Origin: Candidatus Heimdallarchaeota archaeon
Lineage (GTDB): Archaea > Asgardarchaeota > Heimdallarchaeia > Heimdallarchaeales > Heimdallarchaeaceae
Assembly: GCA_023705905.1 (NCBI GenBank)
Contig: BPTK01000004.1
Location: forward strand, 1-32,000
Direction of reading: 5' to 3'
Length of the DNA stretch: 32,000 nt
How positions within the stretch are numbered: the first letter of the stretch is position 1; each line of letters starts with the position of its first letter. Positions 8,168 to 8,348 of the stretch are shown piece after piece. The notes under the pieces are model-generated. The model was not told the origin of the DNA. It worked only from the letters and a program-made list of their open reading frames with translations, and made no database searches. A program made the translations under genes and the position numbers.

Positions 8168-8348
8168 CCTAGTAAGGATTTCAGGTTCGGAATGAGTCTG
8201 AGTGTTACCCCTTCACTATGGCCGCGACGAATCGCAACGAGTAGCTGTTCCCAAGTTCTCTCGAAACATAGTACCAAGCTCTACGTGGAAGGACTTAACT
8301 TTCCCGACCATCTGGAACGCATCCAGATGTATCTCTGACCTTACTAGG
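8168..8348 (-). rRNA. 5S rRNA homolog encoded in circularly permuted order (3' half, UUCG cap, 5' half) with an extra hairpin and a terminal 10-bp clamp helix
   Basis: The minus strand contains AAAGUUAAG, UGGUACU...GGGAAC, GUAGAGCU/AGCUAC and GUUGCGA-UUCG-UCGCGGC. It also contains GCGGCCAUAG, GUGAAGGG pairing with UCCUUCCAC, and UCAG-ACUCAUUCCGAAC-CUGA. The ends CCUAGUAAGG (8348-8339) and CCUUACUAGG (8177-8168) are perfectly complementary. The region is visibly more G+C-rich than its flanks. Confidence 0.8.

What the first reader, a model, noticed from the sequence alone, without database searches (positions are those of the whole stretch)
8168..8348. Circularly permuted 5S rRNA gene: helix I capped by UUCG, new termini clamped by a perfect 10-bp helix
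The minus strand 8348->8168 reads CCUAGUAAGG-UCAGAGAUA-[CAUCUGGA-UGCGU-UCCAGAUG]-GUCGGG-AAAGUUAAG-UCCUUCCAC-GUAGAGCUUGGUACUAUGUUUCGAGAGAACUUGGGAACAGCUAC-UC-GUUGCGA-UUCG-UCGCGGC-CAUAGUGAAGGGGUAACACUCAGACUCAUUCCGAACCUGA-AAU-CCUUACUAGG. All conserved 5S blocks are present and pair correctly. These are helix I with two G-U pairs, helix II GUG-AAGGG with UCCUU-C-CAC including a bulge, helix III/loop C UCAG-ACUCAUUCCGAAC-CUGA, AAGUUAAG, the loop E-like UGGUACU/GGGAAC, and helix V GUAG-A-GCU/AGCUAC. However, the 3' half is encoded before the 5' half. The natural 5S ends are joined by a UUCG tetraloop (8231-8228). The new ends fall between helix III and AAGUUAAG, where an extra 8-bp hairpin (8329-8309) and a 10-bp end-to-end helix sit. 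A TATA-like box lies at the right distance upstream and a T-rich stretch follows the 3' end. I know of permuted 5S rRNAs reported for some organelle genomes and permuted tRNA and SRP RNA genes in archaea, but not a permuted chromosomal archaeal 5S.
Basis: partly seen in the sequence, partly recalled or inferred. Interest (0 to 1): 0.92.

Follow-up and report, generated by a model that had tools for sequence, protein, structure and literature searches.

The report
Circularly permuted 5S rRNA gene in Asgard archaea
This is a real, conserved 5S ribosomal RNA gene whose two halves are encoded in swapped order; it occurs in Heimdall-type and other Asgard archaea, probably explains why no 5S gene could be found in their finished genomes, and may be matured into a circular 5S rRNA.

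Summary
On the minus strand, 8348->8168 encodes a 181-nt RNA with the 3' half of 5S rRNA, then helix I closed by UUCG, then the 5' half. A 10-bp helix clamps the new ends.

Each half alone matches Rfam 5S_rRNA (24.0 and 18.4 bits). The collinear hit scores only 16.2 bits against a cutoff of 38, so standard annotation misses the gene.

The window comes from a Heimdallarchaeota (Asgard) archaeon. Sixteen homologous permuted copies were aligned (window, L002 and 14 GTDB loci). Two come from the closed Heimdallarchaeum genomes whose authors reported that no 5S gene could be predicted.

RNAalifold recovers the 5S fold in permuted connectivity. 23 of 55 pairs show compensatory changes, against 7.9 +/- 2.0 in shuffles. 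More divergent permuted copies occur in Helarchaeota and in a third Asgard-like lineage.

The neighbouring TnpB-like gene is an unrelated insertion.

In every lineage, leader and trailer can form an outer helix, a 3-nt bulge and a 4-5-bp helix. This resembles a bulge-helix-bulge site. In the Heimdall and L034-type copies, the predicted cuts would restore the canonical 5S junction exactly, giving a circle of about 121 nt. That step is inferred, not shown.

I found no prior report of a permuted or circular archaeal 5S.

The parts
8168..8348 (-). Whole permuted 5S rRNA gene (181-nt primary transcript: terminal helix to terminal helix)
   Evidence: Sequence. Full-length hit to the permuted-5S covariance model R1 at 203.6 bits. 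RF00001 half-hits.
8339..8348 (-). 5' strand of the terminal helix (CCUAGUAAGG)
   Evidence: Pairs with 8168-8177. Nine of 10 pairs show compensatory changes among 16 copies. L040, L052, L086 and L059 have entirely different but still complementary sequences.
8168..8177 (-). 3' strand of the terminal helix (CCUUACUAGG)
8335..8338 (-). Leader UCAG, which can pair with CUGA (8181-8184) as an alternative to helix III
   Evidence: The MFE of the full RNA and of leader plus trailer uses this pairing in the window. (U/G)CAG is kept next to the terminal helix even where the helix sequence differs, but it is absent in L059.
8309..8329 (-). Extra 8-bp hairpin with a UGCGU loop, not part of canonical 5S
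   Evidence: RNAalifold helix at columns 21-28/34-41, with compensatory changes in 4 pairs. An equivalent UGCG-capped hairpin sits on the 3' side in the L034-type copies.
8300..8306 (-). CGGG (8306-8303) plus AAA (8302-8300): candidate central-helix strand and 5' bulge of a BHB-like site
   Evidence: C43, G45, G46 and A47-A49 are invariant in 16 copies. CNGG pairs with CCUG at 8185-8182. A cut after the second A would give the canonical junction.
8285..8299 (-). Loop B 3' strand (GUUAAG) and helix II 3' strand (UCCUUCCAC)
   Evidence: RF00001 alignment. Helix II pairs show compensatory changes.
8239..8284 (-). Gamma domain: helix V, loop E-like region, helix IV with a GAGA loop
   Evidence: RF00001 alignment. 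Compensatory changes in helices IV and V.
8221..8238 (-). Helix I (7 bp: GUUGCGA/UCGCGGC) closed by the UUCG tetraloop at 8231-8228, which joins the natural 3' and 5' ends
   Evidence: The cap is UUCG, UGCG, UACG, UAUG, CUCG or UUUG in relatives. The GGGAA-to-CAUAG spacing is 27 nt in all 17 permuted genome-scan loci (and in the window by direct count).
8202..8220 (-). Loop A (CAUA), helix II 5' strand, loop B 5' strand (UAACAC)
   Evidence: RF00001 alignment
8181..8201 (-). Helix III and loop C (UCAG-ACUCAUUCCGAAC-CUGA)
   Evidence: RF00001 alignment. Invariant in 16 copies apart from one U/C position in loop C. RNAalifold pairs the internal UCAG with CUGA.
8178..8181 (-). A-rich 3-nt bulge on the trailer strand (AAA at 8181-8179 or AAU at 8180-8178, depending on register), between CCUG/CUGA and the terminal helix
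   Evidence: A168-A170 are invariant.
8372..8379 (-). TATA-like box CTTAAAAA, -31 to -24 from the RNA start
   Evidence: Direct reading. Conserved as CATTCAAAAA or GATTAAAAAA in orthologues.
8153..8167 (-). T-rich tract after the 3' end (UUUAUUACGUUUACC), a likely terminator
   Evidence: Direct reading. Conserved as UUUUUUACGUUUAC in most Heimdall orthologues.

Best explanation
This is the working 5S rRNA gene of a Heimdallarchaeota (Asgard) archaeon, encoded in circularly permuted order.

Shown:
- One short transcription unit has its own TATA box and T-rich terminator. It encodes the 3' part of 5S (loop B 3' strand, helix II 3' strand, helices V and IV), then helix I closed by a UNCG tetraloop, then the 5' part (loop A, helix II 5' strand, helix III and loop C).
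- The chain break lies between helix III and AAGUUAAG. It carries about 60 extra nucleotides: a terminal helix and a hairpin.
- This architecture is conserved, with covariation, in many Asgard genomes.

Inferred:
- Leader and trailer act as a processing stem. The segment just 5' of (A)AGUUAAG pairs with the 3' strand of helix III. This forms a 4-5-bp helix flanked by a 3-nt bulge and an outer helix, which is a relaxed bulge-helix-bulge site.
- The tRNA-splicing endonuclease cuts both strands and RtcB joins the inner ends.
- The product is a covalently circular 5S rRNA of about 121 nt, in which helix III refolds with its internal partner and the junction reads exactly like a normal 5S (CUGA-AA-GUUAAG).

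My confidence that this is a functional permuted 5S gene is about 0.9. My confidence in the circularisation step is about 0.5-0.55. The confidence given for this explanation is for the full statement, circularisation included.
For: Permuted 5S identity:
- Half-model hits to RF00001 of 24.0 and 18.4 bits.
- The rotated sequence folds as 5S and aligns gap-free with canonical archaeal 5S.

Conservation:
- Sixteen Heimdall copies are 81-96% identical to the window RNA (blastn; three of them aligned over only 135-151 nt).
- Unconstrained RNAalifold returns the permuted 5S fold.
- 97.8% of cells are paired. 23 pairs have changes on both sides, against 7.9 +/- 2.0 in shuffles (0 of 500 reach the observed value) and 3-5 in slid controls.
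- Model R1, built from Heimdall copies only, finds L034-type copies at 83-85 bits and Helarchaeota copies at 46-91 bits, full length in the permuted order. Canonical 5S genes score 26 bits or less.

Likely the only kind of 5S in these organisms:
- Permuted copies occur in the closed genomes CP084166.1 and CP084167.1.
- None of the permuted copies scanned against Rfam (window and 12 related loci) reaches the Rfam gathering score.

Processing site:
- Leader-trailer cofolds give an outer helix, a 3-nt trailer bulge and a 4-5-bp helix with the helix III 3' strand in 9 of the 10 Heimdall, L034 and L098 sequences tested and in L133.
- The paired sequences differ between lineages: CAGG/CCUG, CCGG/CCGG, UGUCG/CGGCA, GCCG/CGGC.
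- The outer helices also differ and stay complementary: GUGGU/ACCAC, GGGUG/CACCC to GGCG/CGCC, GGUUCG/UGAACC to GAUUCAC/GUGGAUC.
- The upstream segment is complementary to the helix III 3' strand, not identical to it, so it is not a duplication relic.
- With cuts after the second bulge nucleotide, the product junction is CCUGAA^AGUUAAG or CCGGAA^GUUAAG. This equals the canonical junction with no gap.
- That cut rule is confirmed in-lineage by the 16-nt introns of the tRNA-His genes next to the second 5S paralogue: central helix CUGU/GCAG, bulges GG|G and AA|A.

Precedents:
- The permuted SRP RNA gene of Thermoproteus is cut at a leader/trailer BHB and circularised.
- Circular 16S and 23S transcripts are seen in Asgard archaea.
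Against: - No transcript data were available, so the mature ends and any circle are inferred only.
- In the window-type copies the outer helix is not continuous on the leader strand. A hairpin and a linker sit between the terminal helix and CNGG, so the site is a three-way junction rather than a textbook BHB.
- An alternative conformer uses the leader UCAG. It would keep the hairpin in the product.
- The second bulge and the inner helix are weak or irregular (AG in the L034-type). L133 has about 45 extra nt after the central helix, and L135 shows no clear site.
- A generic strict-BHB search finds at least one motif in 84% of shuffled sequences. The argument therefore rests on position and covariation, not on motif detection.
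- Total length is tightly conserved at 180-184 nt in the Heimdall, L034-type and L098 copies (L133 and L135 are longer), and the extra hairpin keeps its UGCG-like loop. Both would also fit an extension that is retained in the mature RNA.
- That no canonical 5S exists elsewhere in these genomes rests on one published statement. I could only read 8-kb pieces.
Confidence: 0.55

Rival explanations
1. It is the functional permuted 5S gene, but the mature RNA is the linear 181-nt transcript, perhaps lightly trimmed. Helix I stays capped. The terminal helix and hairpin stay attached as an expansion segment that projects from loop B, as in the permuted mitochondrial 5S of brown algae, where the product itself is permuted.
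For: - Promoter and terminator bracket the RNA almost exactly at the ends of the terminal helix.
- Length is held at 180-184 nt in the Heimdall, L034-type and L098 copies, even though the hairpin sits on different sides.
- The hairpin loop motif (UGCG-like) and the stems of the hairpin and terminal helix are conserved with covariation.
- RNAalifold prefers the internal helix III together with the terminal helix and hairpin.
- Large 5S insertions are tolerated in Halococcus (abstract listed).
- Organellar permuted 5S RNAs are permuted in the final product.
Against: - It gives no reason for the conserved, co-varying complementarity between the segment 5' of AAGUUAAG and the helix III 3' strand. 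That pairing competes with an essential 5S helix.
- It gives no reason why a 3-nt bulge always adjoins that pairing.
- It gives no reason why the predicted cuts regenerate the canonical junction exactly.
Confidence: 0.35
2. It is a decayed, rearranged 5S pseudogene or a relic of a tandem duplication, and the real 5S is canonical and lies elsewhere.
For: Only 32 kb of this genome and 8-kb pieces of the others were readable, so a canonical copy elsewhere cannot be excluded directly.
Against: - Covariation preserves all the 5S helices that vary among the copies, and the conserved 5S loop motifs are kept across three divergent lineages.
- The gene has its own conserved promoter and terminator.
- It has a syntenic position beside tRNA-Ser or tRNA-His.
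- Two paralogous permuted copies occur in one MAG (L040 and L057).
- Closed genomes carry it while no 5S could be predicted in them.
Confidence: 0.04
3. It is the guide (omega-type) RNA of the adjacent 662-aa TnpB-like nuclease, and it only resembles 5S.
For: The RNA lies 135 nt downstream of the TnpB-like ORF on the same strand. The intergenic stretch is conserved in L002.
Against: - The TnpB-like gene is bounded by a perfect 15-nt direct repeat (8443-8457 and 10570-10584). The RNA lies outside that repeat.
- In L010, L029, L013, L049, L059 and L069 the same RNA sits about 135 nt from tRNA-Ser with no TnpB-like gene between them.
- Another copy of the TnpB-like gene (L006) has no such RNA nearby.
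Confidence: 0.02
4. It is an assembly chimera at this locus.
For: Short-read contigs break inside the gene (L001 at window 8325, L121 and L132).
Against: The same arrangement appears in more than 20 independent assemblies, including two closed genomes. The contig breaks are what two near-identical copies per genome would produce.
Confidence: 0.01

Closest known systems
Circularly permuted SRP RNA gene of Thermoproteus (Plagens et al. 2015, eLife, PMC4731332)
   Same: - It is an essential, universal structured RNA whose gene could not be found by standard models.
- The 3' part is encoded before the 5' part.
- Leader and trailer pair into a BHB.
- The splicing endonuclease cuts it and the ends are ligated into a functional circular RNA.
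   Different: - It is a different RNA (SRP, not ribosomal) in a different phylum (Thermoproteota).
- There the circle is experimentally shown; here it is inferred.
- Here the natural ends are fused by a 4-nt UNCG cap, and the break lies in the beta domain of 5S.
Permuted tRNA genes (Cyanidioschyzon merolae, Soma 2007; Thermofilum pendens; cited and from my own knowledge)
   Same: The gene halves are swapped. A BHB at the leader/trailer junction is cut and the ends are ligated into a circle.
   Different: The tRNA circle is an intermediate that RNase P and tRNase Z reopen at the natural ends. Here the natural ends are joined by a conserved stable tetraloop, and no reopening signal is evident.
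Permuted mitochondrial 5S rRNA of brown algae and other stramenopiles (Valach et al. 2014, PMC4267664; Rfam mtPerm-5S)
   Same: It is a 5S rRNA with non-standard connectivity that the standard 5S model misses or scores poorly.
   Different: - There only helix I is replaced by a 5' (or 3') hairpin.
- The termini lie at the alpha/gamma junction, and the beta and gamma domains keep their order.
- Here there is a true circular permutation with the break between helix III and loop B, in a cellular chromosome, with a 10-12-bp terminal helix.
Circular or permuted 23S rRNA in archaeal ribosomes (Pyrococcus furiosus, PMC7758197; Methanosarcina and uncultivated archaea, PMC12918454)
   Same: An archaeal rRNA is cut at a BHB and ligated by RtcB. 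The circular or permuted form stays in the mature ribosome. Circular 16S and 23S transcripts are seen in Asgard archaea.
   Different: Those genes are collinear and the permutation arises at the RNA level. The same paper states that 5S is not known to be processed through circularisation.
Engineered circularly permuted 5S rRNA grafted into 23S rRNA in E. coli (Huang et al. 2020, Nat Commun; from my own knowledge, not retrieved)
   Same: It shows that a 5S whose natural ends are closed by a loop and whose new ends are opened elsewhere can work in a ribosome.
   Different: It is artificial, bacterial and covalently fused to 23S.

Membership tests
5S rRNA (Rfam RF00001) | Conserved sequence blocks of loop A, loop B, loop C with helix III, the loop E region and AAGUUAAG | tested here: met
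   Half-model hits of 24.0 bits (model 5-52) and 18.4 bits (model 49-115). Gap-free alignment of the rotated sequence to canonical archaeal 5S.
5S rRNA (Rfam RF00001) | Three-arm fold (helices I-V) supported by covariation | tested here: met
   RNAalifold consensus. 23 of 55 pairs have changes on both sides, and 0 of 500 shuffles reach that number. The rotated sequence folds as a three-way junction.
5S rRNA (Rfam RF00001) | Collinear 5'-to-3' order giving a full-length hit at or above the gathering score (38 bits) | tested here: not met
   Best collinear hit is 16.2 bits. No gathering-score hit in the window or in any related locus scanned against Rfam. The failure is due to the permutation, not to divergence.
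5S rRNA (Rfam RF00001) | Stable RNA incorporated in the large ribosomal subunit | not testable with these tools
   This needs RNA-seq, Northern blots or cryo-EM of a Heimdall ribosome.
Permuted non-coding RNA genes matured through a leader/trailer BHB (permuted tRNA, Thermoproteus SRP RNA) | The 3' part is encoded upstream of the 5' part in one transcription unit | tested here: met
Permuted non-coding RNA genes matured through a leader/trailer BHB (permuted tRNA, Thermoproteus SRP RNA) | Leader and trailer form a 4-bp helix flanked by at least one 3-nt bulge and by flanking helices, placed so that ligation restores the functional RNA | tested here: inconclusive
   For: an outer helix, a 3-nt trailer bulge and a 4-5-bp helix appear in Heimdall, L034-type and Helarchaeota copies, with different co-varying sequences, and the predicted product junction is canonical. 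Against: the second bulge and inner helix are irregular, the window-type has a three-way junction in place of a continuous outer helix, and generic BHB motifs are common by chance.
Permuted non-coding RNA genes matured through a leader/trailer BHB (permuted tRNA, Thermoproteus SRP RNA) | Circular junction reads, or cleavage by the splicing endonuclease | not testable with these tools
   No transcriptome or enzyme assay was available.
Organellar permuted 5S (mtPerm-5S) | Helix I replaced by a terminal hairpin, termini at the alpha/gamma junction, beta and gamma domains in normal order | tested here: not met
   Here gamma precedes beta, and the break lies between helix III and loop B.
TnpB omega RNA | Encoded at or overlapping the 3' end of tnpB inside the element, and co-occurring with the nuclease gene | tested here: not met
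   The RNA lies outside the 15-nt direct repeats that bound the insertion. It is present without any TnpB-like gene in six or more loci. It is absent next to another copy, L006.

The most novel reading that the evidence does not exclude
Ribosomes of Heimdallarchaeia and some other Asgard archaea contain a covalently circular 5S rRNA. It is made from a circularly permuted gene by the tRNA-splicing endonuclease and RtcB. This would be the first circular 5S rRNA and the first permuted 5S gene in a cellular chromosome, and it occurs in the archaeal group considered closest to eukaryotes.
Probability: 0.5. Interest if true: 0.92.

Novelty: new variant of a known kind. Interest (0 to 1): 0.86.

Why it matters
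- 5S rRNA is universal and is usually the easiest rRNA gene to find. Its apparent absence from closed Heimdallarchaeum genomes was left unexplained (PMC8813620). This gene probably resolves that.
- No permuted copy scanned reaches the Rfam threshold. Genome annotation and MAG quality standards that require a 5S gene will therefore misjudge these lineages. A dedicated covariance model, like R1 here, would fix this.
- It extends gene permutation plus splicing-machinery repair from tRNA and SRP RNA to a ribosomal RNA.
- It predicts a circular 5S in the ribosome, which can be tested directly with existing enrichments and metatranscriptomes.
- Heimdallarchaeia are central to models of eukaryote origin, so an unusual core ribosomal RNA in them matters for reconstructing the ancestral translation apparatus.
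- Its patchy distribution may serve as a phylogenetic marker. It is present in Heimdall-type, Helarchaeota and a third lineage, while ordinary 5S genes are reported in Borr- and Jordarchaeia.

Tried and rejected
- **Scoring the rotated sequence with RF00001.** Not possible, because the Rfam tool reads only the window and fetched loci. I used half-model hits and alignment instead.
- **Finding the source genome.** Looking for exact protein matches (HypF, the RPA-like protein) found nothing on record. Only the TnpB-like protein matched, in a 2.3-kb Logan contig.
- **Genome-collection scan.** The pattern began with a weak GGGAA anchor, so about 100 of the 120 returned loci were ordinary bacterial or archaeal 5S genes with a chance GGGAA upstream.
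- **Metagenome scan.** A pattern designed to exclude Heimdall-type copies returned only the Helarchaeota contig again.
- **Generic strict search for BHB motifs.** Uninformative: 84% of shuffled sequences contain one.
- **K-turn or box C/D reading of CUGA plus the terminal stem.** Rejected, because the 3-nt bulge is on the wrong side of the GA and there is no C box.
- **Two-step splicing model** (first at the leader UCAG, then removal of the hairpin as an intron). Rejected, because the second site would have a 2-nt/1-nt internal loop rather than staggered bulges.
- **Tandem-duplication relic as the source of the CNGG segment.** Rejected, because the segment is complementary to the helix III 3' strand, not identical to it.
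- **Omega-RNA hypothesis.** Rejected.
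Full report
**1. What is in the sequence**

At Rfam gathering thresholds the 32-kb window holds only a tRNA-Ser(GCU) at 10571-10650, and no 5S.

With relaxed thresholds, the region gives a poor collinear 5S_rRNA hit of 16.2 bits, in which only the 3' half is properly aligned. When each half is offered alone, both are recognised:
- 8225->8178 matches model positions 5-52 at 24.0 bits, E=0.0011.
- 8302->8234 matches positions 49-115 at 18.4 bits, E=0.049.

The sum is 42.4 bits, above the family threshold of 38. The helix I and II pairs that bridge the halves are not yet credited in that sum.

The RNA also folds with the 10-bp terminal helix, the extra hairpin and the capped helix I. The rotated sequence folds into the three-arm 5S shape.

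A TATA-like CTTAAAAA lies at -31 to -24 from the first base of the terminal helix. A T-rich tract follows the last base.

**2. Whose genome it is**

The neighbouring genes are GyrB, a MiaB-like radical-SAM enzyme, an RPA-like OB-fold protein, DUF5752, VIT1, a HypE-like protein and HypF. The window is about 35% G+C.

The 662-aa ORF just upstream (8483-10471, minus strand) is TnpB-like. Its 125 homologues are almost all from Candidatus Heimdallarchaeota MAGs. The window therefore comes from a Heimdall-type Asgard archaeon.

**3. The permuted gene is conserved**

- A syntenic contig, L002, carries an orthologue. The protein neighbours there are only about 55% identical. The orthologue has the same swapped order, a UGCG cap instead of UUCG, and compensatory changes in helices I, IV and V.
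- A pattern scan of 185,579 species genomes returned 17 loci with the permuted arrangement. All are labelled Heimdallarchaeota, 'archaeon', Thorarchaeota or Helarchaeota. About 100 further loci were ordinary 5S genes caught by chance.
- Two of the permuted loci lie in the closed genomes of Ca. Heimdallarchaeum aukensis PM71 (CP084166.1, L059) and Ca. H. endolithica PR6 (CP084167.1, L086).
- None of the permuted copies scanned against Rfam (the window and 12 related loci) reaches the Rfam gathering score. This explains that failure.

**4. Covariation**

Sixteen Heimdall copies (180-184 nt) were aligned as A1. RNAalifold, run without constraints, returned these elements:
- the terminal helix;
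- the extra hairpin;
- the loop B pairs;
- helix II;
- helix III, formed by the internal UCAG with CUGA;
- capped helix I;
- helices IV and V.

On that structure 97.8% of cells are paired. 23 of 55 pairs show changes on both sides, against 7.9 +/- 2.0 in column shuffles (0 of 500 reach the observed value) and 3-5 when partners are slid by 1-3 columns.

The terminal helix is the most variable element. L040, L052, L086 and L059 have unrelated sequences there that remain complementary.

A covariance model, R1, was built from these 16 copies. Its scores were:

| Target | Score with R1 |
|---|---|
| L034-type copies | 83-85 bits, full length |
| Helarchaeota copies | 46-91 bits, full length |
| Canonical 5S genes of other archaea and bacteria | 26 bits or less |

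**5. Distribution**

- L098 and its relatives L133 and L135 are genuinely Helarchaeota. The neighbouring DUF1512 protein has its closest named hits (77-80% identity) in that group.
- L034 and its syntenic relatives L128, L130 and L131 belong to a G+C-rich lineage. A neighbouring protein's best named hits are Promethearchaeota, Heimdall and Hodarchaeum at about 35% identity.
- Other Asgard lineages (Borrarchaeum, Jordarchaeum) are reported with ordinary 5S genes. The permutation is therefore not universal in Asgard archaea.
- In the three lineages compared directly (window/Heimdall, L034 and L098), the distance from GGGAA to CAUAG across the cap is exactly 27 nt: a 7-bp helix I plus a tetraloop. 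L135 is an exception with an 8-nt cap loop. This argues for a single origin.

**6. The neighbouring TnpB-like gene is incidental**

In L010, L029, L013, L049, L059 and L069 the permuted 5S sits about 135 nt from a divergently transcribed tRNA-Ser(GCU), with nothing between them.

In the window, the TnpB-like gene lies between the two. It is bounded by a perfect 15-nt direct repeat, TGCTGAGATACTCAA, at 8443-8457 and 10570-10584. This repeat is the 5' end of the tRNA. The 5S gene lies outside that repeat. Another TnpB-like copy, L006, has no such RNA.

A second paralogue type sits next to tRNA-His (L040, L052, L086). One MAG, 8H_bin2, has both types (L040 and L057).

**7. How it may be matured (inference)**

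The 60 or so extra nucleotides are not random. In leader-plus-trailer cofolds, most lineages show the same plan: an outer helix, then a 3-nt bulge on the trailer strand, then a 4-5-bp helix. That last helix forms between the segment just 5' of (A)AGUUAAG and the 3' strand of helix III.

| Copy | Central helix | Trailer bulge | Outer helix |
|---|---|---|---|
| Heimdall (L029, L013, L040) | CAGG/CCUG | AAA | terminal helix |
| L059 | CAGG/CCUG | AAA | GUGGU/ACCAC |
| L034-type | CCGG/CCGG | AAA or AAU | GGGUG/CACCC, changed compensatorily to GGCG/CGCC |
| L098 | UGUCG/CGGCA | GAA | GGUUCG/UGAACC |
| L133 | GCCG/CGGC | AGA | GAUUCAC/GUGGAUC |

This pairing excludes the essential helix III. The upstream segment is complementary to the helix III 3' strand, not a copy of it. 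Its conservation therefore calls for a precursor-specific role.

The geometry fits a relaxed bulge-helix-bulge site. I calibrated the cut rule on the tRNA-His genes beside the second paralogue. Their 16-nt introns at position 37/38 have:
- a 4-bp helix, CUGU/GCAG;
- 3-nt bulges lying 3' of that helix on each strand;
- cuts after the second bulge nucleotide (GG|G and AA|A).

Applying the same rule to the 5S precursor gives these products:
- Heimdall: ...CCGAACCUGAA^AGUUAAG...
- L034-type: ...CCCGGAA^GUUAAG...

Both are 117 nt plus the 4-nt cap. Both align with canonical archaeal 5S rRNAs without a single gap across the junction. L098 would carry two extra nucleotides.

The direct precedent is the permuted SRP RNA gene of Thermoproteus. 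There the leader and trailer form a BHB, the splicing endonuclease cuts it, and the product is a functional circle. Circular 16S and 23S transcripts have also been observed in Asgard archaea.

**8. Caveats on the maturation model**

- No transcript data were available.
- In the window-type copies the outer helix is interrupted on the leader strand by the hairpin. An alternative conformer, in which the leader UCAG (8338-8335) pairs with CUGA, is the MFE in the window and in L002. That conformer would leave the hairpin in the product.
- The second bulge is irregular. L133 has about 45 extra nt after the central helix, and L135 shows no clear site.
- A generic BHB search is uninformative.
- The tight length conservation and the conserved UGCG-type hairpin fit a retained extension equally well.

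I therefore rate the circular model at about 0.5-0.55 and the linear 181-nt model at about 0.35.

**9. Comparison with what is known**

- Permuted 5S rRNAs are described only for stramenopile mitochondria. There helix I is replaced by a terminal hairpin and domain order is otherwise kept. That is a different rearrangement.
- Permuted genes repaired by the splicing machinery are known for tRNAs and for Thermoproteus SRP RNA.
- 23S rRNA is circular or permuted at the RNA level in several archaea, and the same literature states that 5S is not processed that way.
- Full-text searches for permuted or circular 5S in archaea, in Asgard or in Heimdallarchaeota found no report. The library does not cover most subscription journals, so prior publication cannot be fully excluded.

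**10. Verdict**

The finding is a new variant of a known kind: a circularly permuted 5S rRNA gene in cellular chromosomes of Asgard archaea. It is probably the only type of 5S gene in Heimdallarchaeum. It also carries a testable prediction of a circular 5S rRNA.

Noticed in passing
window 8443-10584 (ORF 8483-10471, minus strand; direct repeats 8443-8457 and 10570-10584): A roughly 2.1-kb insertion carries a 662-aa TnpB-like gene. It is bounded by a perfect 15-nt direct repeat that equals the 5' end of tRNA-Ser(GCU). Only the C-terminal ~240 aa match TnpB/Cas12f models, and below their cutoffs; the N-terminal ~400 aa match no family. More than 120 homologues of about 620-650 aa are almost all from Heimdallarchaeota, with several per genome. 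An unusually large Asgard TnpB relative may deserve its own study.
   Followed up: partly
L086 5527-5617 (-) and L040 974-1063 (-): The tRNA-His(GUG) genes next to the second 5S paralogue carry 16-nt introns at position 37/38 with textbook bulge-helix-bulge geometry: central helix CUGU/GCAG, with bulges GG|G and AA|A in L086 and GG|U and AC|A in L040. ARAGORN reported them as 90-91-nt tRNAs without flagging the intron.
   Followed up: yes
L001 (ends at window 8325), L121 (starts at RNA nt 45), L132 (ends at RNA nt ~100): Several short-read contigs break inside the permuted 5S gene. This is expected if each genome holds two near-identical copies (one linked to tRNA-Ser, one to tRNA-His). MAG 8H_bin2 has both (L040 and L057).
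   Followed up: partly
L133 2023-2194 (-) and L135 1804-1972 (-): These are Helarchaeota variants. L133 is 213 nt, with a ~45-nt insert after the candidate central helix. The insert includes what looks like a degenerate second copy of the loop B/helix II 3' strand. L135 closes helix I with an 8-nt loop instead of a tetraloop and has a bulged, longer terminal helix.
   Followed up: partly
L069 (JBHLQZ010000003.1, labelled Candidatus Thorarchaeota QM1B.68): This locus carries a Heimdall-type permuted 5S, 87% identical to the window RNA, with the same tRNA-Ser neighbour. The MAG label or the binning of this contig is probably wrong.
   Followed up: no
window 8349-8482 and L002 6792-6941: The spacer between the TnpB-like stop codon and the 5S gene is well conserved between two genomes whose proteins are only about 55% identical. 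It contains the tRNA-Ser 5' fragment, the old tRNA-Ser promoter region (AAACATTTCGA) and the 5S promoter. A further small RNA there, such as the element's own guide RNA, was not excluded.
   Followed up: no
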